A DNA stretch of 64,000 bases from Alphaproteobacteria bacterium (GCA_016124205.1 WGOD01000004.1:8345-72344); one strand, 5' to 3'. Positions 4,778 to 31,992 are shown, counted from the first letter of the stretch. The notes: generated by a model not told the origin, from the letters alone. Numbers and translations: made by a program.

Positions 4778-4813
4778 ACTTGCATTGAAGAACCTACTTG
4801 CATAAGAATACTC
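4778..4813 (+). promoter_or_regulatory. Two tandem copies of the island 18-bp operator-like motif
   Basis: ACTTGCATTGAAGAACCT (4778-4795) and ACTTGCATAAGAATACTC (4796-4813), upstream of the TBDR start at 4884. Confidence 0.65.
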
Positions 4814-4883
4814 GTTAAGGCGCAGCCCATATCAGATCGGGCCCATCGGGACCCGGCATCGCGCCGTAACGGGGAGAGACACT

Positions 4884-7193
4884 GTGAAAAAGCTTATGCA
4901 AGGGACCGCGCTTGCGCTCGTTATGTGCGCGGCGGGCAATTCAGGCGCGTTCGCGCAAGAGGATGATCCGGCTGCTCAGAGCCAGGGTGGCCTCGACGTC
5001 ATCACCATCACGTCGCAACGCCGCGAGACCACGGTTCAGGATGCCGGTCTCGCCGTGACGGCGATCAGCGGCGAAAACCTCGAGAACGATCGCATCATGT
5101 CGTTCGAGGATCTCGCCGACAGTGTGACCTCCCTGTCGTTCACGGCGCTGTCGCCGCTCGACCAGGAATTCAACATTCGCGGCATCACCAATACGCGTCT
5201 CGACTCGCCCTCGGCTGACCAGTCGGTCGGCATCTTTGTCGATGATGTCTATGTCGGCCGGTCCGGCCTCTTCAACTTCGACATGTACGATATCGAACGT
5301 GTTGAAGTGGTACGCGGTCCGCAAGGCGTGCTGCTCGGCCGGAACGTTGTCGGCGGCGCGATCAGCATCTACACGGCTGCCCCCTCCTTCGACCAGGGCG
5401 GGTCGATGGCGATCTCGATCGGCAATTACGACGAGGTTGTTGCCCGGGGTCATATCACCGGCCAGCTTGGCAATTCTGATTTCGCCGGCCGTCTGTCCTT
5501 CCAGACGCATCACCGCGGCGGGTACAATCACGATATTCTGCACGACCGCGAACTCGACGATCTCCGTTCAATTCAGGCGCGTGCCCAACTGCTCTATGCG
5601 CCGGAGGACTCCAATCTTTCTGCCCGCTTCGTGCTCGATTACACGGACGATGAGTCGAACGGCTTCCACTCGGTTGCGATCAACGGTCCCGATCCGGCCA
5701 CGCAAGGTCCGTGGAGCGCGGCGCGCGATGCGATCGGTGTCATTCGCGGGCGTCCGCTCGATATTCGGGAAAGCCTGCCGGAACATCCGCTCTATGCTGG
5801 CGATACCGCAGAAACCCCGCAGGGCCTTCAGCGTGAAGCCTGGGGCGCAATGCTGCGGATCGACTACGATTACGACTTCGCCACGCTGACGGCGATCACT
5901 GGCTACCGTCAGGGTCAGGCCTTCAACCTCTACGACCAGACCGGCATGGGTCCGAACAACGGCTATGGCGTGATCTCGCCGACGCTGTTCCGCTTCCCGG
6001 TCAACGAGATGGAAGACATCACCCAGTTCAGCCAGGAAATCCGGCTGGTCTCGACGGGAGATGGTCCGCTCGACTGGATCGTCGGTGGCTACTACCAGAG
6101 TGACGACGTCTCCAAGTTTGACCGCTTCTGGGCGGAAGTGCCGCTCCCGGTGCTGCGTACGCTCTCGGGTGAATCGCACTGGGACAACAATGCGGAAACG
6201 ACGTCTTATGCGCTGTTCGCGCAGGCCGGTTACCAGTTCAATGAGATCTTCCGGCTGATCGGCGGTATCCGCTACACCAGCGACGACAAGAGCGGTGTGG
6301 TGACTGGTATCGCCGTCGAGGGCGGCGACCAGTTCAACCCGACCGACCTCGTTGCGCTGACGCCGCTGGCTGCGACCTATCTTGAAGGCGACAGCTTTAC
6401 CACGGCCTATGGCCGCGACTGGAGCGAGGTCACCCCGCAGGTTACGCTGGAAATCACCCCGCGCGACAACCTGTTGTTCTACGCGACATGGTCGCGTGGC
6501 TACAAAGGCGGTGGCTTCGAGGACGACCCGGCCAATCCGGCCGCAGCCCAGGCCGGCTACGACCCGGAAACGGTCACCAATATCGAGATCGGTGCGAAGA
6601 TCGACTTCTTCGACAACCGGGCGCGCCTGAACGTGGCGGCCTTCTCGATGGACTATCAGGATCTGCAGGTGACGCAGACCGATGATGGCTGCCTTTGTAA
6701 CATCACCGACAACGCCGCCGACGCCGAGATCCGCGGTATCGAGGCCGAGTTCCAGTTCGCACCGACCGACCGCATTTTCGTGTGGGCCGGCGCGACCTTC
6801 CTCGACACCGAGTATATCGACTTCATCGACTCCACCGGTCTCGATGCCTCGGGCAACCAGCTGCAGCGGACGCCGGAGATGCAGTACAATATCGGCGGCG
6901 AGCTGACGCTCGATGCCTTCGGCTGGGCCAATGCGCTGGCGATCCGCGCGAACTACACCTACCAGGGCGAAATGTACTGGGCGCCTGACAACGCCCAGAC
7001 CGAGGACGGCTACGGCCTTCTCTCCGGCCGCGTCTCGTTGACGCCACCGAACGCGCCCTGGAGCATTTCGGTGTGGGGCCGCAATCTGACCGACGAGGTC
7101 TACCGGACGAACATCATCGCCTTCTTCGGCGACGAAGTGTCCCGTCTCGGTGCGCCGCGGACGTTCGGGGTCGAACTCGCGACCGACTTCTGA
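4884..7193 (+). CDS. TonB-dependent receptor
   Basis: GTG start with GGGGAG RBS; signal peptide; TonB-box-like DVITITSQRR; plug motif ERVEVVRGPQGVLLGRN; terminal Phe. Confidence 0.95.
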   Translation: MKKLMQGTALALVMCAAGNSGAFAQEDDPAAQSQGGLDVITITSQRRETTVQDAGLAVTAISGENLENDRIMSFEDLADSVTSLSFTALSPLDQEFNIRGITNTRLDSPSADQSVGIFVDDVYVGRSGLFNFDMYDIERVEVVRGPQGVLLGRNVVGGAISIYTAAPSFDQGGSMAISIGNYDEVVARGHITGQLGNSDFAGRLSFQTHHRGGYNHDILHDRELDDLRSIQARAQLLYAPEDSNLSARFVLDYTDDESNGFHSVAINGPDPATQGPWSAARDAIGVIRGRPLDIRESLPEHPLYAGDTAETPQGLQREAWGAMLRIDYDYDFATLTAITGYRQGQAFNLYDQTGMGPNNGYGVISPTLFRFPVNEMEDITQFSQEIRLVSTGDGPLDWIVGGYYQSDDVSKFDRFWAEVPLPVLRTLSGESHWDNNAETTSYALFAQAGYQFNEIFRLIGGIRYTSDDKSGVVTGIAVEGGDQFNPTDLVALTPLAATYLEGDSFTTAYGRDWSEVTPQVTLEITPRDNLLFYATWSRGYKGGGFEDDPANPAAAQAGYDPETVTNIEIGAKIDFFDNRARLNVAAFSMDYQDLQVTQTDDGCLCNITDNAADAEIRGIEAEFQFAPTDRIFVWAGATFLDTEYIDFIDSTGLDASGNQLQRTPEMQYNIGGELTLDAFGWANALAIRANYTYQGEMYWAPDNAQTEDGYGLLSGRVSLTPPNAPWSISVWGRNLTDEVYRTNIIAFFGDEVSRLGAPRTFGVELATDF

Positions 7194-7201
7194 TCATGCG
7201 A

Positions 7202-7282: not shown

Positions 7283-8023
7283 TCAGCTGCCGAGGCGCGC
7301 TGCCATCGATGCCTTGAGCCCGCCGGGATCGCGCGCCAGGGCCGCGCGCACGGCGATCGCATGGGGATCGGTGTCGTGCTCATCGACCTTGTTCGCCATC
7401 GCCCACAGTCCGGTCTTGCCGATGTCGCGCGGCTGAGATTTGCGGATATGCGTCACATGCGCGGCCATGCGTGTGTCCACCGAGCCGACGATCAGTGCCG
7501 TGACGTGAATGCCGAGCGGAGCGAGTTCGGCGCGCAGGCAGTCCGAAGCGGCGCGCGCAGCGAATTTCGACGGGCTGTAGCCGCCCATGTCCGGCACGCC
7601 GACAATTCCGCCCGCGGACAGGACATTGATCACGCCGCCCCCGCCATTCTTCTCCATGATCGGGCCAAAGGCGCGGACCATGTTGAGGACGCCGAAGAAA
7701 TTGACCTCCATCTCGCGGCGGCAGGCGTCGGGGTCGTCGGTCTTGTAGAGGCGCTGCATCTCGAACGCGCCGGCATTGTTCACGACGAGCGTCACGTCGT
7801 CCGCCAGCGCAGCGGCGGCGTTGACCGTGTCCGGCTTCGTCACATCCAGTTCAACGCCGACCAACCGGTCCGGATCGCGCGTGGCGATCTCGTCTGCGTC
7901 AGATTTGTTGCGCGCGCCGACATAGACCCGGCGAGCGCCCTGATCGAGCAATTCCTCGACGAAGCCGAGGCCGATGCCCCGATTGCCGCCCGTAACGATG
8001 GCGGTACACCCTTCGATCTTCAT
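7283..8023 (-). CDS. Short-chain dehydrogenase/reductase
   Basis: True start MKIEGCTAIVTGGNRGIG at 8023 (ATGA overlap with upstream gene); NNAG; YSPSK catalytic motif. Confidence 0.9.
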   Translation of the reverse strand: MKIEGCTAIVTGGNRGIGLGFVEELLDQGARRVYVGARNKSDADEIATRDPDRLVGVELDVTKPDTVNAAAALADDVTLVVNNAGAFEMQRLYKTDDPDACRREMEVNFFGVLNMVRAFGPIMEKNGGGGVINVLSAGGIVGVPDMGGYSPSKFAARAASDCLRAELAPLGIHVTALIVGSVDTRMAAHVTHIRKSQPRDIGKTGLWAMANKVDEHDTDPHAIAVRAALARDPGGLKASMAARLGS

Positions 8024-8568
8024 GACCGTTCCCAGCCTCCCGTGTAGATGATGTCGTGCGGCTTCTTGGCGCCGCGAACCAGCTTCGACGGGTCGGGCGC
8101 GATGCCGCCCCGTCCCCAGGTTTCGCGCAACGGCATTTCGTGGTTCCACTCCCACGCTAGGCGACGTTGCGCGATGCCCCATCGACCGTCCCGCCGCTCG
8201 AAGCGATCGACGACGCGCGCCATGGTCAGGCTGTCGAAGGCGTCGCCATCCTCCGGTTCGCGGCGCGAGAAGGTGAGGATGTAGCTCTCGACCCGGGCCA
8301 CATCGCCATCGAGCTCGATCAGGATGTTGGTCGTCGCATGGGTCATGCGCGGCGCATTCGGCAACACCTTTCGCAACATGGCGACATAGTCCGAGGCCGG
8401 GCCCAGGAAGGTGCCGCCATGGTCCTCGGTCGCATCGTCGTGATAGGCGGCGGCAATGAGGTCGGCATCGCCCCGATCCGCCCCACGGCAATAACGTACG
8501 AGAATTTCCGTGATCGCCTGCTTGTCGATCACGGCCTGAAGGGCTGCGGTATCGAGCGTGTCGGCCAT
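8020..8568 (-). CDS. NTF2/SnoaL_4-like protein (LinA/BaiE-like)
   Basis: IDKQAITEILVRYCRGADRGD, YHDDATEDHG, THATTN, DRFERRDGRWGIAQR. Confidence 0.85.
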   Translation of the reverse strand: MADTLDTAALQAVIDKQAITEILVRYCRGADRGDADLIAAAYHDDATEDHGGTFLGPASDYVAMLRKVLPNAPRMTHATTNILIELDGDVARVESYILTFSRREPEDGDAFDSLTMARVVDRFERRDGRWGIAQRRLAWEWNHEMPLRETWGRGGIAPDPSKLVRGAKKPHDIIYTGGWERS

Positions 8569-8591: not shown

Positions 8592-9035
8592 TCAGGACGC
8601 GCTGAGCACGGGTTTGCGGTCGAGCAGGGGCAGGGCGTAGTCGGGCAGCGCCTCACCTGTCGCGCCGCGGTCGGCGACGCCGCGATCGAAATAGTCGCGC
8701 CAGGCGGAAATCCTTTCGCCCTCGAACTCAAGGATGCCCATATAGGGGACCGAGACATGGTGCCCGTCGGCTGTGTCGAACGAGTCCACGCCTTCCACGA
8801 ACAGGGCGTTGCCGGCTTCCGCCATCCGGAAGATGCGCCAGTTCGGATTGCGGACCTTGGCCTTGTAAGCGGTCAGGAATTCGCGTGCGCCGGCATGGCC
8901 GACTTTCGGCGGCTGCGTGATGGCGGAGTAGTGCCAGACCACGTCTTCGGTCAGATGCTCCAGCACGGCGTCGATATCCTGATCCTTGCACCAGACGTCG
9001 ATCACGGATTGCAGGATTTCGGCTTTGCTTTTCAT
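8592..9035 (-). CDS. Limonene-1,2-epoxide hydrolase-like / SnoaL family protein
   Basis: Start MKSKAEIL at 9035; FVEGVD; ISAWRDYFD. Confidence 0.8.
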   Translation of the reverse strand: MKSKAEILQSVIDVWCKDQDIDAVLEHLTEDVVWHYSAITQPPKVGHAGAREFLTAYKAKVRNPNWRIFRMAEAGNALFVEGVDSFDTADGHHVSVPYMGILEFEGERISAWRDYFDRGVADRGATGEALPDYALPLLDRKPVLSAS

Positions 9036-9048: not shown

Positions 9049-10101
9049 TCAGGCGCTGGCGCGCCAATGGGTGAAAGTGGGTGTCGAGGCGACACCGGGC
9101 GCGGCGGCCACAACATGCGGAATGGTGTTCAGCACGGCTCCGGCGACGCCCTGCATTTCCGGCGAGGCGCGCTCGCCGGACTGTTCGGTATCGACCAGGC
9201 CGAAGGTCATTTCCACGCCGGGGCGGCCTGCGATCTTCAGCGACCAGAGCCCGGCCTCGGTCTCCTCCGGAGCGGGAGGCTCCATCGTCCAGGACACGCC
9301 GAGATCGACGCGCGTCTCCCCGCTGGTTTCGCCGATCCAGCGCCAATCAACCCGGGCGGTTCCACCGGGCTCGATGCGGCCGGCGCGGATATCAAGCGCG
9401 TCCTTCGCCGGACGCAGCGCGTGTGCCGTTCGGATCGTATCGAATGTCCAGCCGAGCCGGTCGCCGATATTCGCGACGACTTCGGCAAACAGGGCGTTCA
9501 TGGTCTGCGCCGGCAGGAAGTCGGGGGCGTTCGGATCGATCTTCCCGGCGGGCGTGCCGAAGCCGATCACGTCGAATACGTATTCGGGACTTTTCACTTC
9601 GCGGCAATCGACCAGTTCGTGGATCGTGATCCGGTCGACGCGCGTGCATACGCTGGTGGCCAGTACGGCCAACCGCTCGGCGCAAAATCCGGGATTGAGG
9701 CCGGCCCCCATGAAGGTCGTGCCGCCCTCGCGACCGGCGGCCTCGAAGGCAGCACGGCGGGCGTCGGGCCAGTGCGGCGGGTGGGTACCACCATTGATCG
9801 AGATGACATTCTTCCCCGATCGAAGCAGCCGGCAGATGTCCGCATCATGCCGCTCGAAAGGCGGATCGAGACGTGCCGCGTGGATGACCACGTCGGCGTC
9901 CAGCGCGAGGATTTCGTCGATGTCGCGGGTTGCCGTCACACCCACCGGATCGCGGCGCGCAATCTCGCCGGCATCACGGCCGGCCTTGCGGTCGCCATAG
10001 ACGTAGAGCCCGGCCAATTCCATGTCCGGATGGTCGATGACCGCCTGAAGGCAGGTGCGGCCCATGGCGCCCGTGGCCCATTGGATAACGCGGTAGGTCA
10101 T
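9049..10101 (-). CDS. Dihydrodipicolinate-reductase-like / NAD(P)H-dependent amine dehydrogenase family oxidoreductase
   Basis: YRVIQWATGAMG Rossmann start; KAGRDAGE; GAGLNPGF; NTIPHVVAAAPG. Confidence 0.8.
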   Translation of the reverse strand: MTYRVIQWATGAMGRTCLQAVIDHPDMELAGLYVYGDRKAGRDAGEIARRDPVGVTATRDIDEILALDADVVIHAARLDPPFERHDADICRLLRSGKNVISINGGTHPPHWPDARRAAFEAAGREGGTTFMGAGLNPGFCAERLAVLATSVCTRVDRITIHELVDCREVKSPEYVFDVIGFGTPAGKIDPNAPDFLPAQTMNALFAEVVANIGDRLGWTFDTIRTAHALRPAKDALDIRAGRIEPGGTARVDWRWIGETSGETRVDLGVSWTMEPPAPEETEAGLWSLKIAGRPGVEMTFGLVDTEQSGERASPEMQGVAGAVLNTIPHVVAAAPGVASTPTFTHWRASA

Positions 10102-11018
10102 CTGGACTGGCTCTTCAGGTGATCCCGGAGATCACCGAACAGATCCGCGAAGGCCGCTTCGGCGCCGGAAAAGCCGCGCGCGGTTGCCAAGCCGGACTGT
10201 CCCGCTGCGAAGGCTTCGAAGTCATCGATTTGCTGCGGCATTGCTGCACCTCCGGTCTCGACGGTTTCGACCCGGCGCAGCCATCCGCCCCCCCCGATCC
10301 AGACCTCGCCCGTGCGGTCATGGTGCGGACTGACCAGCCAGGACGCGGCCGGTGCGATCCGGTCCGGTGCCAGGAGGGCGTCAGGATTGTCGGGATCGTC
10401 CGCGCCGGTCATGCGCGTCGCGGCATAGGGGCAAAGCACGTTGAAGGTGATGCCCTTGCCGCGCCATTCATCCGCCAAGGTGAAGGCAAAGGCGTTGAGC
10501 GCCCCCTTGGACGCGGCGTAGTGGGCGCGGCCCTTCACCCCGTAGAGCCCCGCCGAGGACGAGATGAAGAGCACACGTCCCGAGCCAGTGGCCGAAAGCC
10601 TTTCAAGGCACGACGCGACGATCTGGGCGTTGGCGAAGAAGTTGGTCTCCATCACCTGGCGGACTTCGGCGAGCGTTCCGCCCGAAAAGCGGACGGCCTC
10701 GCCGGCAGTGCCGGCGTTCAGAACCAGCGTGTCGACATGGCCGAAGGCATCGACGGCTGCCTCAGCCATCCGTGTGCCCGCCTCGGGGTCGGTTACGTCA
10801 GAGTGTTCCGCGATGGCCTGACCGCCGGACGTGCGGATGCTTTCGGCCACCGTTTCGGCCTCGTCGGATGCCCCCGGGCGAATGCGATTGTTGACGACAA
10901 CGGCGGCGCCATGCTGTGCGAGCGATCTTGCGAAGGCAGCGCCCAGACCCTTGCCGGCCCCCGTGATGATGGCGACCCGGCCCTCAAGGGCTTTGTGACC
11001 GTGGGAGTTCTTGTCCAT
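10098..11018 (-). CDS. SDR, MFE-2/3-hydroxyacyl-CoA dehydrogenase-like
   Basis: ITGAGKGLG, VVVNN, SSSAGLYG, YAASK, PYAATRMT. Confidence 0.85.
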   Translation of the reverse strand: MDKNSHGHKALEGRVAIITGAGKGLGAAFARSLAQHGAAVVVNNRIRPGASDEAETVAESIRTSGGQAIAEHSDVTDPEAGTRMAEAAVDAFGHVDTLVLNAGTAGEAVRFSGGTLAEVRQVMETNFFANAQIVASCLERLSATGSGRVLFISSSAGLYGVKGRAHYAASKGALNAFAFTLADEWRGKGITFNVLCPYAATRMTGADDPDNPDALLAPDRIAPAASWLVSPHHDRTGEVWIGGGGWLRRVETVETGGAAMPQQIDDFEAFAAGQSGLATARGFSGAEAAFADLFGDLRDHLKSQSR

Positions 11019-11037: not shown

Positions 11038-11055
11038 TGGTTTCCTAATGCAAGC
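11038..11055 (-). promoter_or_regulatory. Island 18-bp motif overlapping a putative -35 hexamer
   Basis: Minus strand GCTTGCATTAGGAAACCA; TTGCAT-N17-TAATTT-N6-ATG(11018). Confidence 0.65.
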
Positions 11056-11083: not shown

Positions 11084-12058
11084 TCAGGCGTCCGCCGACT
11101 GTCGCTCGCCGGCCTGGGCCGGATCGGTCAGCCCGTGCACTTCGAACTGCACGTCTTCCGGCGACAACGGTTCATGGCAATGCGAACAGACGACCTCGGC
11201 CTTCAGGCTGTTGCCGCACGGCTTGTGCTCGAGAATGAGCGGCGGGCCCTCCGGCGCGACATAGTATTTGTCGCCCCACTGCAGCAGCATCAGCAGGATG
11301 GGATAGTAGTCGATCGCTTTTTCGGTGAGTCGGTAGTCATGCCGCGGCGGGCGGTCCGAATACTGGTGCAATTCCAGCATGTCGATCTCGCACAGCCAGG
11401 TCAGGCGTTCGGACAGGACATTGGTCGCAATCGCCGTGTCCTCGCAGATCTCGTCGAAACGGCGAAGCCCGGTAAAGATCGATCGCAGCACAAGGCTGGC
11501 CCACCGATCGCCGGTAATCTGGGCAACATGGTCGTGCAGGATGGATGTGCCCTGGCGATTGGTCGCGTTGTCGCGCTGGCGCCGGCGGCGGGAATAGGTC
11601 GGTGCCATCCAGCCGATGCCCGGTCCTTCGCTCCAGTTCATGTCCTTGGCGCGGATTTCCTCGCCACAGTCCGAACAGGCCGGCATGGGTTCGAAGGTAT
11701 GACCGCACGTCGTATGACGCAGCGTGACGGTCAGCTTGTCCTTCTCGGGGGCCCAGCGCTGTTCCCAGCGCAGCATCATGAGGGCTGACCAGTAGAGATC
11801 CCGGCCCTTCTCGGTCAGCTGGTATTCGAAACGGCGCGGTGCTTCGCTGTAGGGCCGAAGTTCAAGCACGCCCGAGGCGACAAGCTTCTTGAGCCGGTTG
11901 CTCAGCAGGGGCTTCAGAAGCCCGGTCCGGGAGCGGATTTCCTCGAACCGCCGGGCGCCGAGCCAGCTGGCTTCGAGAATGAGCAGGGTCGATGTGTCGC
12001 CGACGACCTCAAGGGCGCGCCAGATCGAACATGTTCGAATGAATTTCTGTTCCGACAT
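11084..12058 (-). CDS. Tandem (two-domain) HxlR/DUF24 winged-helix transcriptional regulator
   Basis: Two homologous halves (CSIWRALEVVGD...LSNRLKKL...EYQLTEKG and QITGDRW...LSERLTWL...DYRLTEKA), each followed by HxxC...CxxC. Confidence 0.9.
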   Translation of the reverse strand: MSEQKFIRTCSIWRALEVVGDTSTLLILEASWLGARRFEEIRSRTGLLKPLLSNRLKKLVASGVLELRPYSEAPRRFEYQLTEKGRDLYWSALMMLRWEQRWAPEKDKLTVTLRHTTCGHTFEPMPACSDCGEEIRAKDMNWSEGPGIGWMAPTYSRRRRQRDNATNRQGTSILHDHVAQITGDRWASLVLRSIFTGLRRFDEICEDTAIATNVLSERLTWLCEIDMLELHQYSDRPPRHDYRLTEKAIDYYPILLMLLQWGDKYYVAPEGPPLILEHKPCGNSLKAEVVCSHCHEPLSPEDVQFEVHGLTDPAQAGERQSADA

Positions 12059-12108: not shown

Positions 12109-12126
12109 GCTTTCAAATGCGTACCA
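12109..12126 (+). promoter_or_regulatory. Island 18-bp motif upstream of the regulator (possible autoregulation)
   Basis: GCTTTCAAATGCGTACCA, 50 bp upstream of the ATG at 12058. Confidence 0.55.
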
Positions 12127-13539: not shown

Positions 13540-14012
13540 CGGGCTTCGCTGTCGAAGTCCGAGGACAGGCCCATGGCCTCAAGCAGTTCGGCACGGTCGT
13601 AGTATTCGCGCCACTCGGTGATCAGGCCGTCGTCATTGACCTCGATGACGCCCACGACCGGAACGGAACCGGCGTGACCGTTGAACACGAATTCGTCGGT
13701 CCGTTCGATGAAGACGACGTCGTCGACGACACCGATGTGATGGATGTTCAGCGTGATCTCGGAAATGCCTTCGGCGATGTGGCCGATACGGTTTCCGATC
13801 GCTTCGCGGCCGATGATCGGCTCCACCATCATCGAATGGAGCGAGCCATCCTCGGCGAACAGGTTCGTGACGCGGTCCCAGTCCTGGGTGTTCCAGGCGT
13901 CGACCATGTCCATCACCACAGCAACCCGGGGATCGTCCGCGGCTTCGTGATGGTCGGCCAACGCGGCAGGCGCAAGCATTGCCGCGGTTGCGGCGGCCAG
14001 TATCAGTCGCAT
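13536..14012 (-). CDS. Exported limonene-1,2-epoxide hydrolase family protein
   Basis: Signal peptide MRLILAAATAAMLAPAALA; FIERTDEF; ITEWREYYD. Confidence 0.85.
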   Translation of the reverse strand: MRLILAAATAAMLAPAALADHHEAADDPRVAVVMDMVDAWNTQDWDRVTNLFAEDGSLHSMMVEPIIGREAIGNRIGHIAEGISEITLNIHHIGVVDDVVFIERTDEFVFNGHAGSVPVVGVIEVNDDGLITEWREYYDRAELLEAMGLSSDFDSEAR

Positions 14013-19349: not shown

Positions 19350-19350
19350 G

Positions 19351-21476: not shown

Positions 21477-21482
21477 GCGCAA

Positions 21483-25451: not shown

Positions 25452-27122
25452 ATGGGCAAGGACAGCCGCGAGGAACGGCACAGGCGCTATCGCAAACTCG
25501 GCTGGTGGGACGACCGGACCTTTCACGCCGTCGTCGATGCGGCAGCGAAGCGCGCGCCGGACCGCGAAGCGGTAATCGATCCGCCCGATTGCGAAGCCCT
25601 GGTCGGGCGGGCGCAGTCGCGGCTCACCTATGCCGGTCTCGTCAATGCCTCGAACAATCTGGCTGCGCAGCTGTCGAAGGCCGGGATCGGCCATGGCGAC
25701 AGTGTTCTGGTACAGCTGCCGAACACGGCCGAACTGCCCGTCGTCTATCTTGCCCTGTCGCGTCTGGGGGCCATCATCAGCCCCGTACCGATGCAGTATG
25801 GCCGTCACGAGATCCGCCACACCTCGCACGAATTGCCGGCCAAGGCCTTCATCGGAGTCAGCGAATTCAAGGGCGCGGATGCCGCCCCGAGCGTTGCCGG
25901 GTCTTTGCCCGAAAACTGTCTGCGGTTTGCCTATGGCCGTGCGAAGTCGGGCTTCACCGCGCTGGGGATCAATCCCGGCCGGCCTGAGCGCACCGTCAAG
26001 GCAAAAGGGAAGGCTGAGGATCTGTTCACGATCTGCTGGACGTCGGGAACGACGGGAACGCCGAAGGGCGTGCCGCGGACCCACCAGCATTGGTTCGCCC
26101 AGGTTCTGGCGGTTCAGGACGCCGTGCCGCTTCCTGAGGGCGCGGTGATGCTCAACCCCTTCCCGATGACCAACATGGCGTCGCTGTCGGGCTTCATGTT
26201 CTACTGGCCGCAGATTGCGTCGACCCTGGTGCTGCACCACCCGTTCGACCTGCCGGTCTTCCTGAAACAGATGAGCGAGGAGAAGGTCGCCTACACGATC
26301 GCGCCGCCTGCGGTTCTGAACATCTTCCTGAAGACCGAGGCACTGCACGCGGCCACGGATTTGTCGGCAGCGAAATACATCGCCTCGGGCAGTGCGCCGC
26401 TCGACCCGTGGATGGTGAAGGGTTTCAAGGACAAGTTCGGTATCGAGATCATCAATTTCTTCGGTTCGAACGAGGGGATCGGCCTGTGCGGCGGGCCAAA
26501 CGAAGTCCCGGATTCCGAACAGCGCGCGACGCTGTTTCCGCGGTTCGGTCGGCCGGAGTTCAAGTGGAACAACCGCTTCGCCGAACGCTTCGAGACCAAG
26601 CTCGTCGACTGGGAAAAGGATGACGAGGAAATCCTCGAACCGGGCCGGACGGGCGAGGTGCTGATCCGCGGACCGAACGTGTTCGAGGGCTATCTGAACG
26701 ATGCCGGAACCGATGTGTTCGACGCCGACGGCTATTTCCGGACCGGCGATCTGTTCGAAATTGCGGGTGAGGGCGATCTGAAGGCCTTCTACCGCTTCAA
26801 GGGCCGCCGAAAGGAACTGATCATCCGGGGCGGGATGAACATTTCCCCGGAGGAACTCGACGGCATTCTCACCGCTCATCCGGCTATCGCGGAAGCGGCG
26901 GTCTGCGGCTATCCCGACGAGACAATGGGCGAGAAGGTCTGCCTCTTCGCCGTATTGAAGCCCGGCGCGTCGCTGACGCTCGACGATGTGAAAGCCTTCC
27001 TCGAGGCGGAAGGCGTGGCGAAATTCAAATGGCCGGAGCGGCTGGAGATCATTGATGCCCTGCCGCGCAATCCGCTGAACAAGGTGGTTCGCGACGACCT
27101 GAAGAAACGCCTGGAGGCCTGA
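25452..27122 (+). CDS. Class I adenylate-forming acyl-CoA ligase
   Basis: WTSGTTGTPKGV, FGSNEG, YFRTGD, IIRGGMNISPEE, PRNPLNK. Confidence 0.9.
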   Translation: MGKDSREERHRRYRKLGWWDDRTFHAVVDAAAKRAPDREAVIDPPDCEALVGRAQSRLTYAGLVNASNNLAAQLSKAGIGHGDSVLVQLPNTAELPVVYLALSRLGAIISPVPMQYGRHEIRHTSHELPAKAFIGVSEFKGADAAPSVAGSLPENCLRFAYGRAKSGFTALGINPGRPERTVKAKGKAEDLFTICWTSGTTGTPKGVPRTHQHWFAQVLAVQDAVPLPEGAVMLNPFPMTNMASLSGFMFYWPQIASTLVLHHPFDLPVFLKQMSEEKVAYTIAPPAVLNIFLKTEALHAATDLSAAKYIASGSAPLDPWMVKGFKDKFGIEIINFFGSNEGIGLCGGPNEVPDSEQRATLFPRFGRPEFKWNNRFAERFETKLVDWEKDDEEILEPGRTGEVLIRGPNVFEGYLNDAGTDVFDADGYFRTGDLFEIAGEGDLKAFYRFKGRRKELIIRGGMNISPEELDGILTAHPAIAEAAVCGYPDETMGEKVCLFAVLKPGASLTLDDVKAFLEAEGVAKFKWPERLEIIDALPRNPLNKVVRDDLKKRLEA

Positions 27123-28363
27123 TGACCCGCCTCGCGATCGCCGGAATCTCGATGACGGCGATGGGCAAGCAGCCCGCCCGCAGCGTCGCCGAGATGACCG
27201 CCGAGGCGGTGACCGGCGCGCTGCGCGATGCGGGTGTCGGCGCGGACCGGATCGAAGCGGCCTGGTTCGCCAATACGCGTCAGCCGATCCTTGAAGGGCA
27301 GAACACGATCAGGGGCCAGATCGCGCTGAAGGCTGCGGGCATCCACTCTATCCCGATCGCCAATGTCGAGAATGCCTGTGCCAGTGGCTCGACAGCGCTG
27401 TGGCAGGCGGCAGCGCATATCCGGGCCGGACTGGCGAGCTGTGTCCTGGTCGCCGGGGCGGAGAAGATGTTCTTCCCAGACCGGCCGGAGGCGGTTGCGA
27501 AGGCTTTTCTCGGTGGCACCGACATTTCACGGATCGACGAGATCGAGGCGGCCATCGGCGGTCTGGCGGCCGACATCATCCCCGCGGGCTGCGAGACGCC
27601 GGCGGACACGCGTAGCTTCTTCATGGACAGCTATGCCGCGCTCGCCCGGCTGCACATGAAAACCTTCGGTACGACGCAGCGCCAGATCGCGATGGCGGCG
27701 GCGAAGAATCACGACCACTCGGTCCACAATCCGCTGGCGCAATACCGCACGCCGATGAGTGTCGAGGCGGTGCTGGCCGACAAGCCGATCGTGTGGCCGT
27801 TTACCCGGTCCATGTGTGCGCCAATCAGCGACGGGGCGGCGGCACTGGTGCTGATGGCGGAAAACGCCCTGCCTTCGGAGGCAAGGGCGCGGGCGGTCGG
27901 CCTGCGCGGCATTGCGCTGGTCAGCACGGGCCCGCGCGCGCCGGACGACTACGCCAACCATATCGGAGCGCGCGCGGCCCGGGCGGCGTACGAGATGGCC
28001 GGCATATCCCCAGGCGATATCGATCTGGCCGAAGTGCATGACGCCACGGCCTGGGCGGAGATTCAGCAGATCGAGAATCTAGGCCTCTGCGGAATCGGCG
28101 AGGGCGGGGCGTGGACCGAGAGGGGCGAGACCCGGATCGGCGGCCGCACCCCGGTCAACCCGTCGGGCGGGCTCGTGTCCAAGGGGCATCCGGTCGGGGC
28201 CACGGGAATCGCGCAGCTTTACGAGCTGTGTCTGCATCTGCGCGGCGAGGCCGGGACGCGCCAGGTCGAGGGCGCGCGGATCGCGGCCGCGGAGAATGGC
28301 GGGGGCTTTCTCGATATCGAGGAGGCGGCGACCACGGTGACCGTGCTGGAGCGGCCGGCCTGA
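27122..28363 (+). CDS. SCP2-like thiolase family protein
   Basis: VENACASGS, CAPISDGAAA, AEVHDATA, GHPVGATG, ENGGG. Confidence 0.88.
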   Translation: MTRLAIAGISMTAMGKQPARSVAEMTAEAVTGALRDAGVGADRIEAAWFANTRQPILEGQNTIRGQIALKAAGIHSIPIANVENACASGSTALWQAAAHIRAGLASCVLVAGAEKMFFPDRPEAVAKAFLGGTDISRIDEIEAAIGGLAADIIPAGCETPADTRSFFMDSYAALARLHMKTFGTTQRQIAMAAAKNHDHSVHNPLAQYRTPMSVEAVLADKPIVWPFTRSMCAPISDGAAALVLMAENALPSEARARAVGLRGIALVSTGPRAPDDYANHIGARAARAAYEMAGISPGDIDLAEVHDATAWAEIQQIENLGLCGIGEGGAWTERGETRIGGRTPVNPSGGLVSKGHPVGATGIAQLYELCLHLRGEAGTRQVEGARIAAAENGGGFLDIEEAATTVTVLERPA

Positions 28364-29829
28364 TGCTGCCCATCAACCGGTTTCTGCGCCGCGCCGATGC
28401 CGAACCGGAGCGGCCCGCCCTGCGCGATGATCTCGGGATTGAACTGACCCATGGCGAACTGGCCGCGCGGGCCCGCGCGGTCGCGGCCGCACTGATCGAA
28501 ACGCTCGGCGAAGAGCCGCGTCTCGTCGCGCTCGCCGCGCGCAATCACGCCGCCCATGTCATCGCCATGTTCGGCATCTTCATCGCGGGACATGCCTGGC
28601 TTCCGGTCAATCCGCGCGCCGCGCGAACACTCAATGATCGCGTCAATGAGCGGCTCAGGCCGGACCTTCTCATCCTCGACGAGGCGGTGGGCGATTGCGT
28701 CACGCCGCTCGACCTGACCTGGCGTTTCGACGGGCGCGATCCGGACCCCCTACCGGCGGGCACCTTGCCACAGGACGGGTTTCCGGAGCGGTCGCTCGAC
28801 GACACGATGTCCGTGAAGCTCACCGGCGGGACGACGGGCGAACCCAAGGCGGTGGCTCAGACCCACCAGGTCATTGCGACCGTGATGGATGATCTGACAT
28901 CGGTTTTCGGGATCGGGCGGACGGATGTGAACCTCGCCGTCGCCCCGCTGTCGCACGGGGCCTTTCATTTCCTTCTGCCGGTGCTCGCGGCGGGCGGGCG
29001 GCACGAAATCGTGTCGCGGTCCGATCCGGACAGCTTGCTCGATCTGATGGCGGAGCGGGGCGTCAGCCTCGCCTTCATGCCGCCGACCCTGATCGTCAAG
29101 CTGATGGAGCGCGATGGTGCCCGGCCCGAACGCTTTCCGCGTCTGCGGCAGCTCATCTACAGCGCCGCCCCGATGCCGCCGGCGCAGATCGCGCGGGCGC
29201 AAGCCGCCTTCGGTCCTCGGATCGGCGTGATGTACGGACAGGTCGAGGCCCCCATGGCCATCGCGGCGATGTCGGCGGAGGACCTCGCCGAGAGCGGTCA
29301 CGCCGAAAGCTGCGGCCGTCCCTGTCCCTCGACCGAGGTGAGGATCGACAAGCCCGATGCCGACGGGATCGGGGAAATCCTCGCGCGGGGGCCGTTGACG
29401 ATCCGCGCCTATCTGACTGGCGAACCCTCACCGCTGGACGAGGAGGGATGGCTGCATACGGGTGATCTCGGGCGGCTTGGCGAAGATGGCCATCTCTTCA
29501 TCCGGGGCCGCGCGCGGGACGTGCTGATCACGGGCGGGTTCAACGTCTATCCGGCGCAGGTCGAACAGGCACTTCTGCAGGTCGCGGGGATCAGCGAAGC
29601 CTGCGTCTTCGGCGTATCCGATCCCTATTGGGGTGACCGGATCGAAGCCGCCGTCGTGACATCGGGCGAGGTGGCTGACGACGCGATGGCCCGCGCCGTG
29701 CGCGAGGCGATCGGCGTGGCCGCCGTGCCGAAGCGGTTTCACCGCGCCGAGGCCCTGCCGCGCAATGCGGTCGGCAAAGTCGTTCGCCGGGATGTCGCGG
29801 CGCTGTTCAGCGGGCCGGGCGGGGCGTGA
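28363..29829 (+). CDS. Class I adenylate-forming acyl-CoA ligase
   Basis: Start MLPINRF (TGATG overlap at 28361-28365); TGGTTGEPK, YGQVEA, WLHTGDLG, ITGGFNVYP, PRNAVGK. Confidence 0.88.
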   Translation: MLPINRFLRRADAEPERPALRDDLGIELTHGELAARARAVAAALIETLGEEPRLVALAARNHAAHVIAMFGIFIAGHAWLPVNPRAARTLNDRVNERLRPDLLILDEAVGDCVTPLDLTWRFDGRDPDPLPAGTLPQDGFPERSLDDTMSVKLTGGTTGEPKAVAQTHQVIATVMDDLTSVFGIGRTDVNLAVAPLSHGAFHFLLPVLAAGGRHEIVSRSDPDSLLDLMAERGVSLAFMPPTLIVKLMERDGARPERFPRLRQLIYSAAPMPPAQIARAQAAFGPRIGVMYGQVEAPMAIAAMSAEDLAESGHAESCGRPCPSTEVRIDKPDADGIGEILARGPLTIRAYLTGEPSPLDEEGWLHTGDLGRLGEDGHLFIRGRARDVLITGGFNVYPAQVEQALLQVAGISEACVFGVSDPYWGDRIEAAVVTSGEVADDAMARAVREAIGVAAVPKRFHRAEALPRNAVGKVVRRDVAALFSGPGGA

Positions 29830-30253
29830 GCATCATCGAGGCCGTGCCGCGGGCGTGGACCGTGCCGTCGGGCGACCGGATCACGCATTCCGCGACACCC
29901 ATCTTGCGGCCGCGATGGACGATTTCAGCTTCCGCGATCAGGCGATCAATCCCCGCGGGCGCGGCGCGGACATAGCGCACCTGGATATCGGTCGTCGCGA
30001 ACTGCTCGTCGGCTCCGATCATCGTCATCATCGCGCAGCCGGTGACCGCATCGACAAGCCCGGCCATCGCGCCGCCATGCACCCCGCCCATCAGATTGGC
30101 GTGCTCCGGCGTGATGGCGCATTCCAGTTCGGCGCGGCCTTCGGAGAAGGACAGGATGCGGAAGCCGAGCAGCTTGGCGAAACCGGGCGCGTGGCCCTGA
30201 TCGCGCCAGCGGGTGAGGATGTCGGTTCCGCTGCCCTCCAGTTCGCCGCTCAT
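29807..30253 (-). CDS. PaaI family hotdog thioesterase
   Basis: Start MSGELEG at 30253 (ATGA overlap); HANLMGGVHGGAMAGLVDA, ATTDIQVRYVR, HRGRK. Confidence 0.88.
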   Translation of the reverse strand: MSGELEGSGTDILTRWRDQGHAPGFAKLLGFRILSFSEGRAELECAITPEHANLMGGVHGGAMAGLVDAVTGCAMMTMIGADEQFATTDIQVRYVRAAPAGIDRLIAEAEIVHRGRKMGVAECVIRSPDGTVHARGTASMMLTPRPAR

Positions 30254-31956
30254 GCCGCGTCTCCCGCCGGCACAGGCTCGCGGAATTGGACAATGCGGAA
30301 TCGGTTCGCAACGAAGGCCAGGTCGGCAAGACAGGCATTCCCGGCCGGGTTCAGCCCCGTGACGTGATAGTCGCTGTAGGCTGCCGCGAAATTGATCGGC
30401 ATGCGGCCGTCCATGTTGATCCAGAGCGAAGCCCCGGCATCGGTGAAGGCGTCCTGCGCCCGGTCGATGAAGTCCGGGTCGGCGGAATAGAGGTAGGACG
30501 AGATCGCCCCCCGCGTGGCTGCAAGCTGTGCCGCGCGTTCCAGCGCCGTGTCGCGGTCCGGTTCCCGGATCAGGAAGCAGACCGGTGCGAAGACTTCCTC
30601 GCCATAGAGATCGATTGCCTCGGCCGGCACTTCGACGACCAGCGGTGTCGCCGTCCGGGCTTCGGGAAAGTCGGGGTGGTCGTAAGGGTGGCTGTCGAGC
30701 CAGACGCGCCCGCCCGCCTTCGTCACTGCCTCCCGCACGCGGTCGATATGTCTGAGGGATTCCTCGGCCTGGATGGCGGCGCACAGCCCCGCCGCGACCT
30801 TCGGATTGCTGCCGCGCGACCGGATGGCCTCGACCAGTTGAGTGGCGACCTCGTCGAACTTCATATCCCCATCAGGACCGCTGATTCCGCTTTCCGGGAT
30901 GTGAAGATTTTGCGGGCTGGTACACATCTGGGCCGAGAAGCCGCACAGCCCGTTTGCAAGGCCGGCAATGGCGCCGTCGGTATCGCGGAAGCCGTCGATC
31001 ACGACGCCGTTGCAGCCCGCGGTCTCGGTGTAGACGAGGCGGTCGGCGCAATTTTCCTCGATCCAGCGGCCGAAGCGCTGGCTGCCCGTATAGTCGATGA
31101 TCGCGCAGTCGGGGTGTTTCAGCAGGTCGATCGTCACCGGCGCTTCGCGCGTGTCGGCGGCCATCAGGACCATGTTCGGGTCGAGACCTGCTTCGGTCAG
31201 CACCTCGCGCATGCGCTTCACCGCCATTGCCACGGGCAGGATGCCGTTGGGATGGGGTTTCACGATGGCCGGATTGCCGGTCATCAGATTGGCGAAGATG
31301 GCGGGATAGGCATTCCACATCGGGAAGGTCGCGCAGCACACGACCACGGCCACACCGCGGCCGCGCGTGCGGTAGGTCTTGTTTAGCCGGACATCGCCGC
31401 CGCGGCCGAAATTCTTCTCCCACTGCGCCTGGCCGGGCACGTCCTTCAGCGCCTTGTAGGCATAGGCGAGGGCCTCGATGCCGCGGTCGAGCGCGTTGGG
31501 TCCGCTTCCCGAGAACGCCATGAGATAGGCCTGCCCGGCGGTGTGCATGGTGGCGTGCGCGTTCGCAAAGGCCTGCTCTTCCATCGCGAAGGCGATCTCG
31601 AAACAGATCCCGGCGCGCTCTTCCGGTGTCAGGCGGGACCAGGACCGCATGGCCGCCTTCGCGGCGGCGAACAAGGCGTCGGGATCGCTTTTCGGGTAGT
31701 CGATGCCGAGGCGTTTTTGTGTGTAGGGCGAGACTTCGTGTCCGGTCCGGCCGATCGTGCCGGGCTGATCGAGTTCGAAGGGTTTGCCGAGCAAGGCGTC
31801 GAAACGGGCCTTGCCCTCGGCGGGCTTTTCCTCGCCATGAATCTTGCTGCTCGGTGATTCCCGGAACGGGCTCCACTGGTGGCGCGTAGCGCATGCCTCC
31901 AAAGCGGCGTCGAGATGTTTCCGGTGGCGTTCGTAGAGCGCAGCGGGCGTTGCCAT
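30250..31956 (-). CDS. paaN: PaaN-type aldehyde dehydrogenase family protein
   Basis: MHTAGQAYLMAF, GPNALDRGIEA, CATFPMWN, IVKPHP, YTETAG, SAQMCTSPQN, FAAAYSDYHVTGLNPAGNA. Confidence 0.85.
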   Translation of the reverse strand: MATPAALYERHRKHLDAALEACATRHQWSPFRESPSSKIHGEEKPAEGKARFDALLGKPFELDQPGTIGRTGHEVSPYTQKRLGIDYPKSDPDALFAAAKAAMRSWSRLTPEERAGICFEIAFAMEEQAFANAHATMHTAGQAYLMAFSGSGPNALDRGIEALAYAYKALKDVPGQAQWEKNFGRGGDVRLNKTYRTRGRGVAVVVCCATFPMWNAYPAIFANLMTGNPAIVKPHPNGILPVAMAVKRMREVLTEAGLDPNMVLMAADTREAPVTIDLLKHPDCAIIDYTGSQRFGRWIEENCADRLVYTETAGCNGVVIDGFRDTDGAIAGLANGLCGFSAQMCTSPQNLHIPESGISGPDGDMKFDEVATQLVEAIRSRGSNPKVAAGLCAAIQAEESLRHIDRVREAVTKAGGRVWLDSHPYDHPDFPEARTATPLVVEVPAEAIDLYGEEVFAPVCFLIREPDRDTALERAAQLAATRGAISSYLYSADPDFIDRAQDAFTDAGASLWINMDGRMPINFAAAYSDYHVTGLNPAGNACLADLAFVANRFRIVQFREPVPAGDAA

Positions 31957-31974
31957 GAAAGCGAGATTCCTCGT

Positions 31975-31992
31975 CGGTTTCCTATTGCAAGC
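31975..31992 (-). promoter_or_regulatory. Island 18-bp motif upstream of paaN
   Basis: Minus strand GCTTGCAATAGGAAACCG; 16/18 identical to the copy at 11038-11055. Confidence 0.7.

What the first reader, a model, noticed from the sequence alone, without database searches (positions are those of the whole stretch)
4778..31992. A self-contained ~27 kb catabolic regulon built around two carotenoid-cleavage oxygenases; substrate unknown
Seen: 24 genes covering outer-membrane uptake (TBDR), inner-membrane transport (MFS), two intact CCO-family dioxygenases, three LEH-like and two LinA/BaiE-like NTF2 proteins, three SDRs, a PaaN-type aldehyde dehydrogenase, three CoA ligases, three thiolases, a thioesterase, DUF1295 and NMO-like reductases, and one regulator. 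A shared 18-bp motif precedes each transcription unit, and its outermost copies (4778 and 31992) mark the ends. Known: CCO enzymes cleave C=C bonds of carotenoids, apocarotenoids or stilbenes to aldehydes. Inference: the order cleavage, aldehyde oxidation, CoA activation, thiolysis suggests complete mineralisation of a large conjugated hydrophobic molecule. One candidate is algal epoxy-xanthophylls such as fucoxanthin or violaxanthin, whose 5,6-epoxides would explain the LEH-like proteins; stilbenoids or conjugated lipids are alternatives. I do not recognise this as a described pathway.
Basis: partly seen in the sequence, partly recalled or inferred. Interest (0 to 1): 0.85.

Follow-up and report, generated by a model that had tools for sequence, protein, structure and literature searches.

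The report
Fused two-module alkene-cleaving catabolic regulon
A 27-kb block of 24 intact genes shares one 18-base DNA box and joins two gene sets that occur separately in other bacteria; it likely lets the cell import small unsaturated acids (probably carotenoid breakdown products), cut a carbon-carbon double bond with two untested iron enzymes and burn the pieces, by a route not found in the papers searched.

Summary
Observation confirmed: 24 intact genes (4884-31956) and an 18-bp box before all eight inferred transcription units (one weak). The box travels with the tandem HxlR gene in other genomes (35 of 40 loci with it, 7 of 39 without), so it is very likely its operator. The block is composite. 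A widespread CCO1 module (core: CCO, SCP2-type thiolase, tandem HxlR) is joined to a rarer CCO2 module that sits alone, with its own HxlR, in two other genomes. Both CCOs keep four His but belong to an untested clade: the second-sphere Glu and the stilbene-binding Tyr/Lys are missing and an Asp appears beside the occluding Thr (99 of 99 in-clade sequences). Intact epoxy-xanthophylls are unlikely substrates: LEH-like genes are accessory (10 of 79 loci), two of three lack the catalytic Arg, and the CCOs lack the hydrophobic membrane helix. Best reading: CoA-dependent breakdown of small conjugated, probably carotenoid-derived acids; substrate unproven. The scan found the CCO1 module, the box and the PaaN link before on other DNA. 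New here are the fusion, the CCO2 module and the active-site signature.

The parts
4778..4813 (+). Two adjacent 18-bp boxes (4778, 4796) upstream of the TonB-dependent receptor
4884..7193 (+). TonB-dependent receptor (769 aa)
   Evidence: Pfam PF00593/PF07715
7283..8023 (-). SDR1 (PRK08264-like)
8020..8568 (-). BaiE1, SnoaL_4 NTF2-fold protein (dehydratase-like; activity inferred)
8592..9035 (-). LEH1, LEH-like NTF2 protein with EGVD in place of ERxD (Arg lost)
9049..10101 (-).
10098..11018 (-). SDR2 (best model PRK07791, below cut-off; resemblance to the MFE-2 dehydrogenase domain is recalled)
11038..11055 (-). Box upstream of the SDR2-DapB-LEH1-BaiE1-SDR1 unit
11084..12058 (-). Tandem (double) HxlR regulator, 324 aa, each half followed by CxxC pairs
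   Evidence: Pfam PF01638, two stretches; sequence
12109..12126 (+). Weak box (13.3 bits) upstream of the regulator
12196..13539 (-). MFS transporter
13536..14012 (-). LEH2, LEH-like protein with signal-peptide-like N-terminus; keeps Arg/Asp and has Glu for the second Asp
14026..14043 (-). Box upstream of LEH2-MFS
14095..14502 (-). LEH3, LEH-like protein with Arg replaced by Gly
14639..14656 (+). Box in the divergent LEH3 / Lig1 gap
14669..16471 (+). Lig1, acyl-CoA synthetase (PRK12582-like, 664 bits vs cut-off 777)
16499..17308 (+). DUF1295 membrane protein (steroid 5-alpha-reductase-like; enone reductase inferred)
17326..18807 (+). CCO1, RPE65-family dioxygenase, 493 aa; H180/H228/H292/H478, E366, E420, T136, D137, Y150
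18819..19349 (+). BaiE2, SnoaL_4 protein
19351..20277 (+). SDR3
20274..21482 (-). Thl1, thiolase with nucleophilic Cys and GHP His kept, NEAF changed to MEAF and the C-terminal Cys changed to His
21483..22751 (-). Thl2, SCP2-type thiolase (PRK06289, 636 bits vs cut-off 375; CxS, HDCF, GHP kept)
22808..22943 (.). Two boxes (22808+, 22926-) in the divergent Thl2 / NMO gap, the junction of the two modules
22964..23923 (+). NMO/FabK-like FMN oxidoreductase (closest structures are FabK enoyl-ACP reductases)
23947..25386 (+). CCO2, RPE65-family dioxygenase, 479 aa, separate clade from CCO1, same Asp/Tyr signature
25452..27122 (+). Lig2, acyl-CoA ligase of the conserved core type
27122..28363 (+). 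Thl3, SCP2-like thiolase with HDAT instead of HDCF
28363..29829 (+). Lig3, acyl-CoA ligase
29807..30253 (-). Hotdog thioesterase (4HBT/PaaI-like)
30250..31956 (-). PaaN-type aldehyde dehydrogenase (TIGR02288, 600 bits vs cut-off 579) of a CCO-linked branch
31975..31992 (-). Outermost right box, upstream of PaaN-TE

Best explanation
This is a block of 24 genes sharing one box, likely the operator of its tandem HxlR regulator, likely formed by joining two paralogous modules, and it likely degrades small conjugated carboxylic acids, most probably carotenoid-derived (apocarotenoid or norisoprenoid) acids, by a CoA-dependent route in which an untested clade of CCO would cut a C=C bond. Proposed steps, all inferred from enzyme families: (1) The TonB receptor and MFS import the acid; the exported LEH2 may open an epoxide in the periplasm. 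(2) Lig2 (with Lig1 and Lig3 for variants) makes the CoA ester. (3) The FabK-like flavoenzyme, SDRs, DUF1295 and SnoaL proteins adjust oxidation state and double-bond position. (4) CCO1 or CCO2 cleaves the alkene to a ketone plus an aldehyde, probably on the CoA ester. (5) The PaaN-type enzyme oxidises the semialdehyde. (6) The SCP2-type thiolase removes acetyl- or propionyl-CoA from the branched 3-oxoacyl-CoA, and housekeeping beta-oxidation finishes the job. The two modules probably handle two related substrates or two different double bonds. My separate odds: regulon about 0.9; alkene-cleaving CoA-dependent catabolism about 0.8; carotenoid-derived substrate about 0.45.
For: Shown here: the box precedes every inferred unit and is confined to the block. 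It co-occurs with tandem HxlR in 35 of 40 versus 7 of 39 loci (67 hits vs 7.7 shuffled, and 7 vs 3.7). Among 79 GTDB loci of CCO1 relatives, Thl2 is present in 48, tandem HxlR 40, Thl1 39, Lig2 33, NMO 33, DUF1295 21. Thl2 lies next to the CCO in 8 of 12 actinobacterial loci, 3 of them with tandem HxlR. The CCO2 module stands alone with its own HxlR and boxes in G438 (L125, on a different contig from that genome's CCO1 module) and in G028 (L087). CCO1 and CCO2 form separate 100/100 clades. The closest solved structures are plant CCD1 9,10-dioxygenases by sequence (E 1e-70) and by fold (TM 0.82, with stilbene dioxygenases at 0.84). The PaaN-like protein falls in a CCO-linked branch sister to true paa-cluster PaaN (paa genes seen in 3 of 4 outside loci scanned), and no PaaA/C family was found in 5 of 5 genomes tested. 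The paa dehydrogenase acts on a ring-opened 3-oxoacyl-CoA semialdehyde (PMC9493321, passages). Three plasmid cousins keep HxlR, CoA ligase, NMO, CCO, Thl1, ALDH and SDR; two add a porin and tricarboxylate-type binding protein, one a TonB receptor. This points to small acids. SCP2-type thiolases handling methyl-branched substrates is recalled knowledge.
Against: No substrate, expression or enzyme data. The CCOs score far below the cut-offs of every characterised CCO model hit (229 and 310 vs 675 for the apocarotenoid 13,14-dioxygenase model), and identity to CCD1 is only about 32%, so 'carotenoid-derived' is an extrapolation. The missing second-sphere Glu could mean altered chemistry. CCO1 stands without any cluster gene in 16 of 79 loci, and in 9 of 46 loci with 8 kb or more on each side. 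The module split is not clean: L087 carries Thl1, DUF1295, SDR2, SDR3 and an LEH-like gene beside CCO2. One plasmid cousin has a VanA-like Rieske protein, and sphingomonad loci have tannase/feruloyl-esterase and beta-lactamase-fold neighbours, which fit aromatic esters as well. The box was not found in the Cupriavidus basilensis locus at 12 bits. Related genomes are not independent samples.
Confidence: 0.45

Rival explanations
1. Same regulon and same logic, but the substrate is a non-carotenoid cyclic or conjugated small acid (alicyclic, furan-, indole- or benzofuran-type, or an aryl-polyene/dienoic acid released from an ester), activated as a CoA ester and cleaved by the CCO.
For: Minimal cousins on IS- or integrase-flanked plasmid segments in soil and freshwater Cupriavidus and Sphingopyxis have alpha/beta hydrolases, carboxylate-type binding proteins and, in one case, a Rieske protein. 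Esterase neighbours occur in sphingomonads. The CCO loops are polar. IpdC introduces a ring double bond on a CoA-bound alicyclic acid in steroid catabolism (PMC6678751, passages); its kinship to the NMO family is recalled.
Against: The closest structures by sequence are carotenoid 9,10-dioxygenases and the FDGDG motif is kept. The SCP2-type thiolase is the tightest partner, which suits methyl-branched chains (recalled). No ring-hydroxylating or central aromatic genes are in the block.
Confidence: 0.3
2. One reading: complete mineralisation of intact large epoxy-xanthophylls (fucoxanthin, violaxanthin), with the LEH-like proteins opening 5,6-epoxides.
For: LEH2 keeps the LEH acid-base residues (ERxD in 15 of 15 homologs) and looks exported. 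There is a TonB receptor, and CCD1 is the closest structure by sequence. One algal metagenome holds a relative of this DNA (X9, share 0.33).
Against: LEH-like genes occur in only 10 of 79 loci and in none of the 4 plasmid loci read (annotation). LEH1 and LEH3 have Gly for the Arg. The CCOs have no signal peptide, and the loop matching the hydrophobic helix of CCD1/VP14 is short and polar (mean hydropathy -1.3). A C40 pigment would have to cross the inner membrane through an MFS.
Confidence: 0.1
3. A stilbene or lignin-dimer pathway like the lignostilbene dioxygenase systems of sphingomonads, which also pair CCOs with NTF2-fold lyases (recalled).
For: SnoaL_4 genes lie next to CCO1. Lig1 belongs to a family related to feruloyl-CoA synthetase (recalled). 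The fold match to LsdA and NOV1 is as good as to CCD1 (TM 0.84).
Against: The Tyr and Lys that hold the 4-hydroxyl of stilbenes are replaced in both enzymes (Tyr role in PMC12051055, passages; Lys role recalled). Scores are 176-221 bits against cut-offs of 650-800 for the LSD models.
Confidence: 0.07
4. The two modules are unrelated neighbours that share a regulator only because one HxlR copy was lost after a rearrangement; there is no joint pathway.
For: They occur apart in G438, and the CCO1 module occurs with a single CCO in G440 and G443. CCO2 was within 10 kb of CCO1 in 0 of 79 other loci.
Against: Both modules use the same box type even when apart. The window's CCO1 module lacks the Lig2 and NMO copies it carries elsewhere, and these are supplied by the CCO2 module. 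G020 also has two clade members 9 kb apart.
Confidence: 0.08

Closest known systems
Plant CCD1 carotenoid 9,10(9',10')-dioxygenase (Osmanthus fragrans; PDB 7vud, 9m3e, 9m6z, 9luz)
   Same: Best sequence hit (E about 1e-70) and top Foldseek hit (TM 0.82); seven-bladed propeller, four His, FDGDG motif
   Different: About 32% identity; hydrophobic helix replaced by a short polar loop; second-sphere Glu replaced by Tyr/Trp with Asp after the occluding Thr; embedded in a CoA-dependent catabolic regulon
Lignostilbene dioxygenases (LsdA, NOV1, PbLSD, CAO1)
   Same: Same fold (TM 0.81-0.84), Thr as occluding residue, short loop typical of enzymes for soluble substrates
   Different: Substrate-binding Tyr and Lys absent; far below NCBIfam cut-offs
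Phenylacetyl-CoA (paa) pathway, PaaN/PaaZ dehydrogenase
   Same: PaaN-type ALDH above the TIGR02288 cut-off, hotdog thioesterase, CoA ligase and thiolase logic
   Different: No PaaABCE epoxidase family in 5 of 5 genomes tested; the ALDH forms a separate CCO-linked branch
M. tuberculosis Rv0913c (uncharacterised CCO) and Rv0914c (thiolase)
   Same: An actinobacterial CCO1-Thl2 pair exists in 8 of 12 loci read; Rv0913c is named as a putative CCO with no activity given in the passage read (PMC5133782)
   Different: Orthology to these two genes was not tested here; it rests on recall and on earlier scan notes
HxlR/DUF24 family regulators
   Same: Two PF01638 domains and a pseudo-palindromic box (ACTTGCA-N4-RAWACCW)
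   Different: Two HxlR domains in one chain, controlling a catabolic block; binding not shown

Membership tests
CCO/RPE65 superfamily | Seven-bladed propeller fold and PF03055 above cut-off | tested here: met
   421 and 436 bits vs 27; CCO1 model pLDDT 92.6, TM 0.76-0.84 to solved CCOs
CCO/RPE65 superfamily | Four iron-binding His | tested here: met
   H180, H228, H292, H478 invariant in 49 of 49 aligned rows including CCO2
CCO/RPE65 superfamily | Three second-sphere Glu/Asp | tested here: inconclusive
   E366 and E420 kept. The first Glu position holds Tyr/Trp in 99 of 108 sequences, all of which have Asp137; the 9 with Glu lack it. Whether Asp137 (or E/D154 in the CCO1 clade) takes over could not be checked because the model's atomic contacts are not returned.
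CCO/RPE65 superfamily | Fe(II)- and O2-dependent alkene cleavage | not testable with these tools
   needs enzyme assay
Lignostilbene dioxygenases | Tyr and Lys binding the 4-hydroxyl; family score above cut-off | tested here: not met
Apocarotenoid 13,14-dioxygenase (NF052295) | Family score above 675 bits | tested here: not met
   229 and 310 bits
Membrane-associated carotenoid-cleaving CCDs (CCD1, VP14) | Hydrophobic helical patch at the tunnel entrance | tested here: not met
   segment aligns to gaps or a polar loop; mean hydropathy -1.3 in 85 CCO1-clade and -1.25 in 8 CCO2-clade rows; patch described in PMC5133782, passages
Limonene-1,2-epoxide hydrolases | Asp-Arg-Asp triad (residue roles recalled) | tested here: inconclusive
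   LEH2 keeps Arg and Asp with Glu for the second Asp; LEH1 and LEH3 have Gly for Arg
SCP2-type thiolases | CxS, HDCF and GHP motifs | tested here: met
   Thl2 keeps all three; HDCF in 49 of 50 homologs. Thl3 has HDAT (4 of 4).
Phenylacetate (paa) pathway | PaaABCE epoxidase in the genome and a paa neighbourhood | tested here: not met
   PF05138 in 0 of 5 genomes, control 4 of 14; own genome is 70% complete
Native amine dehydrogenases (Ord/AmDH) | Catalytic Glu in the EEM motif (role recalled) | tested here: not met
   motif aligns to NGG; 96 bits vs cut-off 400
HxlR regulon | Operator box upstream of targets that co-occurs with the regulator | tested here: met
HxlR regulon | Direct binding and co-regulation | not testable with these tools
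   needs EMSA and RNA-seq

The most novel reading that the evidence does not exclude
This CCO clade cleaves a ring double bond of a CoA-bound norisoprenoid acid (the trimethylcyclohexene end ring of carotenoids and abscisic-acid-like compounds). That gives in one step a 3-oxoacyl-CoA or CoA-semialdehyde for the SCP2 thiolase and the PaaN-type dehydrogenase. It would be a ring-opening, CoA-ester-specific activity with a rewired iron second sphere, not among the CCO activities in the review read, and the missing bacterial route for mineralising carotenoid end rings.
Probability: 0.2. Interest if true: 0.85.

Novelty: new variant of a known kind. Interest (0 to 1): 0.58.

Why it matters
Carotenoid breakdown products reach water and soil in bulk. 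The papers read say the bacterial enzymes that degrade such compounds are unknown: for abscisic acid only side-chain products are identified (PMC9599779, discussion; PMC6938937, first part; PMC13619911, passages). This block offers a defined, testable candidate: a regulator with a mapped box, named cultured relatives among the hits (Maricaulis salignorans DSM 16077, Hyphococcus luteus SY-3-19, and plasmids of Cupriavidus necator NH9 and Sphingopyxis granuli RW412), and a large CCO clade with a diagnostic active-site change that has no solved member among the PDB hits. The fused two-module form lets two sister enzymes be compared under one regulator.

Tried and rejected
Complex prediction of CCO1 with Thl2 gave no verdict (score 0.00); it is not used as evidence either way. 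RNA: the one metatranscriptome found (X20, share 0.06) has three short near-identical contigs on Lig1, DUF1295 and CCO1; no silent control was laid, so expression is not shown. Generic repeat and sigma-70/terminator scans did not reveal the box or anything above chance. The rhodopsin search found 0 of 5 genomes but its control also rang nowhere, so it is uninformative. The phytoene/squalene synthase family gave one weak hit in the own genome; pigment synthesis is undecided. GC and GC3 of the block are close to the flanks, so there is no sign of recent foreign origin. A DUF1295/SDR set near the acetate permease in G009 and G007 is not a remnant of this block: no CCO match, and it has an FMO-like gene instead. 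The Asp/Tyr signature could not be read in the plasmid CCOs because my pattern failed. Literature: 10 full-text searches found no paper describing this gene set; most subscription papers are outside the library, and no supplements were opened.

Full report
Setting. The window is contig C4 of a 2.21-Mb, 70%-complete genome. Its CCO1 is 99% identical to that of Hyphobacterium sp. SN044 (L003), so it is likely a Hyphobacterium (Maricaulaceae). GC is 62-69% across the block and close to the flanks.

Genes. I took candidate ORFs, scanned 47 against Pfam and the final 24 against NCBIfam. No crotonase or acyl-CoA dehydrogenase family was found among the 24, so the block needs housekeeping beta-oxidation or unusual substitutes. 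From gene orientation I infer eight transcription units: TBDR; SDR2-DapB-LEH1-BaiE1-SDR1; HxlR; LEH2-MFS; LEH3; Lig1-DUF1295-CCO1-BaiE2-SDR3; Thl2-Thl1; NMO-CCO2-Lig2-Thl3-Lig3. PaaN-TE is a further unit on the minus strand; LEH3 and the Lig1 unit share one divergent gap and one box, so I count them as one regulated promoter region.

The box. A matrix from these seven, run over the whole genome, gave 30 positions above 13 bits. The top eight are in the block, the eighth (22926) being untrained and only just above the best outside site (19.8 vs 19.7). Held-out sites rank within the top 7-13 genome positions. An eight-site matrix gives 10 hits at 11 bits or more in the window: nine in the gaps before the units (the one before HxlR weak, 13.3 bits) and one at 37069 inside a gene (11.4 bits). 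The independent test is in other genomes. In 79 loci (L004-L082), 35 of 40 with a tandem HxlR have a hit at 14 bits or more (67 hits, shuffled mean 7.7), against 7 of 39 without (7 hits, shuffled 3.7). Many of these loci are related sphingomonads, so this is not a formal statistic, but it includes Alpha- and Gammaproteobacteria of 42-67% GC. The box is very likely the operator of the double HxlR; binding is not shown.

Boundaries. In the genus, 1 of 17 other genomes has a CCO1 match. G005, whose flanking transporter is 99% identical, joins window 4646 to about 42159. It lacks the regulon and also the acetate block at 32088-42065, whose permease was found in 8 of 18 genus genomes. So the box delimits the regulon, while the variable segment is 37.5 kb. 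The order is the same in L003 and G006. Run X6, from a study other than the possible source, covers most of 12197-32099.

Conservation. The GTDB scan confirmed at least 569 relatives of CCO1 and returned the best 80. Leaving out the near-identical L003, the 79 loci (up to 10 kb each side, many cut short) contain Thl2 48, tandem HxlR 40, Thl1 39, Lig2 33, NMO 33, a TonB receptor 29, DUF1295 21, PaaN 10, any LEH-like 10, any BaiE-like 6, CCO2 0; CCO1 is alone in 16. For the 46 loci with 8 kb or more on both sides: Thl2 31, HxlR 28, Thl1 25, LEH-like 4, alone 9. Thl2 directly follows CCO1 in 20 of 50 loci that have it. In the phylum of an Ilumatobacter genome (Actinomycetota), 18 of 401 genomes match; of the 12 I fetched, 8 have Thl2 adjacent and 3 also the tandem HxlR. 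In Alphaproteobacteria 12 of 401 genomes, own genome included, match CCO2 at E 1e-90 or better. The family is thus patchy and wide, with a core of CCO, SCP2 thiolase and tandem HxlR.

Two modules. NMO, CCO2, Lig2, Thl3, Lig3, TE and PaaN occur together with their own tandem HxlR and boxes in G438 (L125; 58-79% identity; a different contig from that genome's CCO1 module) and in G028 (L087). G440 and G443 have a single CCO with the CCO1 module. Elsewhere the CCO1 module carries its own more distant Lig2 (41-46%) and NMO (51-58%; 68% in L007); in the window these are present once, in the CCO2 module. A tree of 53 of 108 CCO rows (hand-picked subset) puts CCO1 (31 rows) and CCO2 (7 rows) in separate 100/100 clades inside one 44-row clade (100/99). 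The window therefore looks like a fusion of two old paralogous modules under one regulator. Against a clean split, L087 also carries Thl1, DUF1295, SDR2, SDR3 and an LEH-like gene.

The oxygenases. Both keep four His, two Glu (E366, E420), the occluding Thr and FDGDG; the CCO1 model is confident (pLDDT 92.6). Closest solved relatives are plant CCD1 (E 1e-70, about 32% identity), then VP14, stilbene dioxygenases and ACO. Three differences stand out. First, where CAO1 and PbLSD have Lys-Glu, CCO2 has Trp-Tyr and CCO1 Phe-Tyr, and the residue after the occluding Thr is Asp. Among 108 sequences, 99 have this Asp and no Glu at that position (90 Tyr, 9 Trp), and the 9 with Glu lack the Asp. This is probably one evolutionary event, not 99. 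Three outer-sphere Glu are described as highly conserved in the family (PMC6060882, PMC5133782 and PMC12051055, passages). I infer that Asp137 replaces the lost carboxylate but could not inspect contacts. Second, the stilbene-binding Tyr and Lys are absent, and scores are far below the LSD and apocarotenoid 13,14-dioxygenase cut-offs. Third, the segment matching the hydrophobic helix of CCD1/VP14 is a short polar loop, which argues for soluble substrates.

The partners. Thl2 is a true SCP2-type thiolase. Thl1 keeps its nucleophilic Cys and His but has lost the C-terminal Cys, which 6 of 18 aligned rows retain; its role is unclear. The NMO-like protein is nearer FabK enoyl reductases (E 3e-22) than nitronate monooxygenases (E 2e-11). 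The PaaN-type ALDH passes the TIGR02288 cut-off. Yet 13 CCO-linked rows form a branch apart from 7 rows of genomes with no strong CCO2-query match (SH-aLRT 100, midpoint root), 3 of 4 such loci scanned show paa genes, and none of 5 genomes tested has the PaaA/C family (control 4 of 14). Since the paa enzyme oxidises a ring-opened 3-oxoacyl-CoA semialdehyde (PMC9493321, passages on PaaZ), its recruitment hints that the CCO product is CoA-bound. LEH2 looks exported and keeps the acid-base residues; LEH1 and LEH3 have lost the Arg.

Plasmid cousins. Seven plasmid records match CCO1 at E 1e-80 or better; I read four. Three (S. granuli RW412 pRW412b, C. basilensis pRK1-2, C. necator NH9 pENH92) carry a compact set: a 310-aa HTH regulator (shown to be tandem-HxlR-like in the first two), CoA ligase, NMO, CCO, thiolase, ALDH, SDR, alpha/beta hydrolase and MFS, plus either a porin and tricarboxylate-type binding protein or a TonB receptor, and no NTF2 genes. 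The Polaromonas locus has only the CCO, hydrolases and binding proteins annotated. These CCOs are 46-50% identical to CCO1, so substrates may differ, but the core chemistry evidently works on small acids without the LEH-like genes.

Mechanism. Shown: genes, box, co-occurrence, modular origin, residue changes. Inferred: regulation by HxlR, catabolic direction, step order and substrate. I favour CoA-dependent breakdown of small conjugated carotenoid-derived acids (0.45) over other cyclic or conjugated acids (0.30), intact epoxy-xanthophylls (0.10), stilbenoids (0.07) and an accidental fusion (0.08). The boldest reading is ring cleavage on a CoA ester. Cutting the ring alkene of a cyclohexenyl-acetyl-CoA-type compound yields a 3-oxoacyl-CoA directly, and with a ring C-H also a terminal aldehyde, which would explain the tight CCO-thiolase link and the PaaN-type partner (0.2). 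Against it, characterised CCOs act on conjugated alkenes (PMC12051055, passages), and no data here show CoA binding.

Literature and earlier scan notes. Ten full-text searches found no description of this gene set; subscription papers and supplements were not seen. Read as passages: PMC5133782, PMC12051055, PMC6060882, PMC13619911, PMC9956071 (no mention of 'carotenoid'), PMC9493321, PMC6678751. Read as passages plus discussion: PMC9599779. First part of the text: PMC6938937. The scan had already noted the CCO1 module, the box, the CCO-thiolase pair and the PaaN branch on other genomes. I had found the synteny, the box and the module split before those look-ups; the PaaN tree was run after one of them.

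Verdict. Real, coherent and undescribed in the papers searched, but built from known families, substrate unproven, and partly seen before in this scan. New variant of a known kind; interest 0.58.

Noticed in passing
window 32088-42065: Acetate-scavenging block (DUF4212 and SSF permease, SSF-fused sensor kinase, response regulator, DcaP-like porin, acetyl-CoA synthetase). It is missing together with the regulon in G005; the six other genus genomes with the orthologous flanking transporter, except G006, lack the permease. It has no strong box.
   Followed up: partly
window 2-4646: TonB receptor, exported 288-aa protein without a Pfam hit and a DASS-family transporter form a conserved trio flanking the block; the transporter and the 288-aa gene also lie next to the CCO1 module in L005.
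   Followed up: partly
window 20274-21482: Thl1 lacks the C-terminal catalytic Cys and has MEAF for NEAF in most alphaproteobacterial copies, while six gammaproteobacterial copies keep Cys and NE; it may be a non-canonical acyltransferase or a partner subunit.
   Followed up: partly
L136 (NZ_CP063841.1, about 86600-101200): IS-flanked 11-gene cousin on plasmid pRW412b of the ibuprofen degrader S. granuli RW412, with a VanA-like Rieske protein next to the CCO; not discussed in the RW412 paper passages read.
   Followed up: partly
L137 20795-29415: C. basilensis pRK1-2 has a second CCO unit under a MarR regulator right beside the HxlR unit, another two-CCO arrangement.
   Followed up: no
G000:C1:93293: Best box-like site outside the block (19.7 bits); it may be a remote member of the regulon or chance.
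   Followed up: no
window 42239-44482: 747-aa protein with three PPC domains and DUF6055, just beyond the right edge of the variable segment.
   Followed up: no
window 44640-55405: fixNO...GHI-type cbb3 oxidase genes and a radical SAM gene; ordinary.
   Followed up: no
L021 5020-6534; L085 5526-6896: Tannase/feruloyl-esterase (6 loci) and beta-lactamase-fold (14 loci) proteins recur near the CCO1 loci, mostly in sphingomonads, hinting at an ester-bound substrate.
   Followed up: partly
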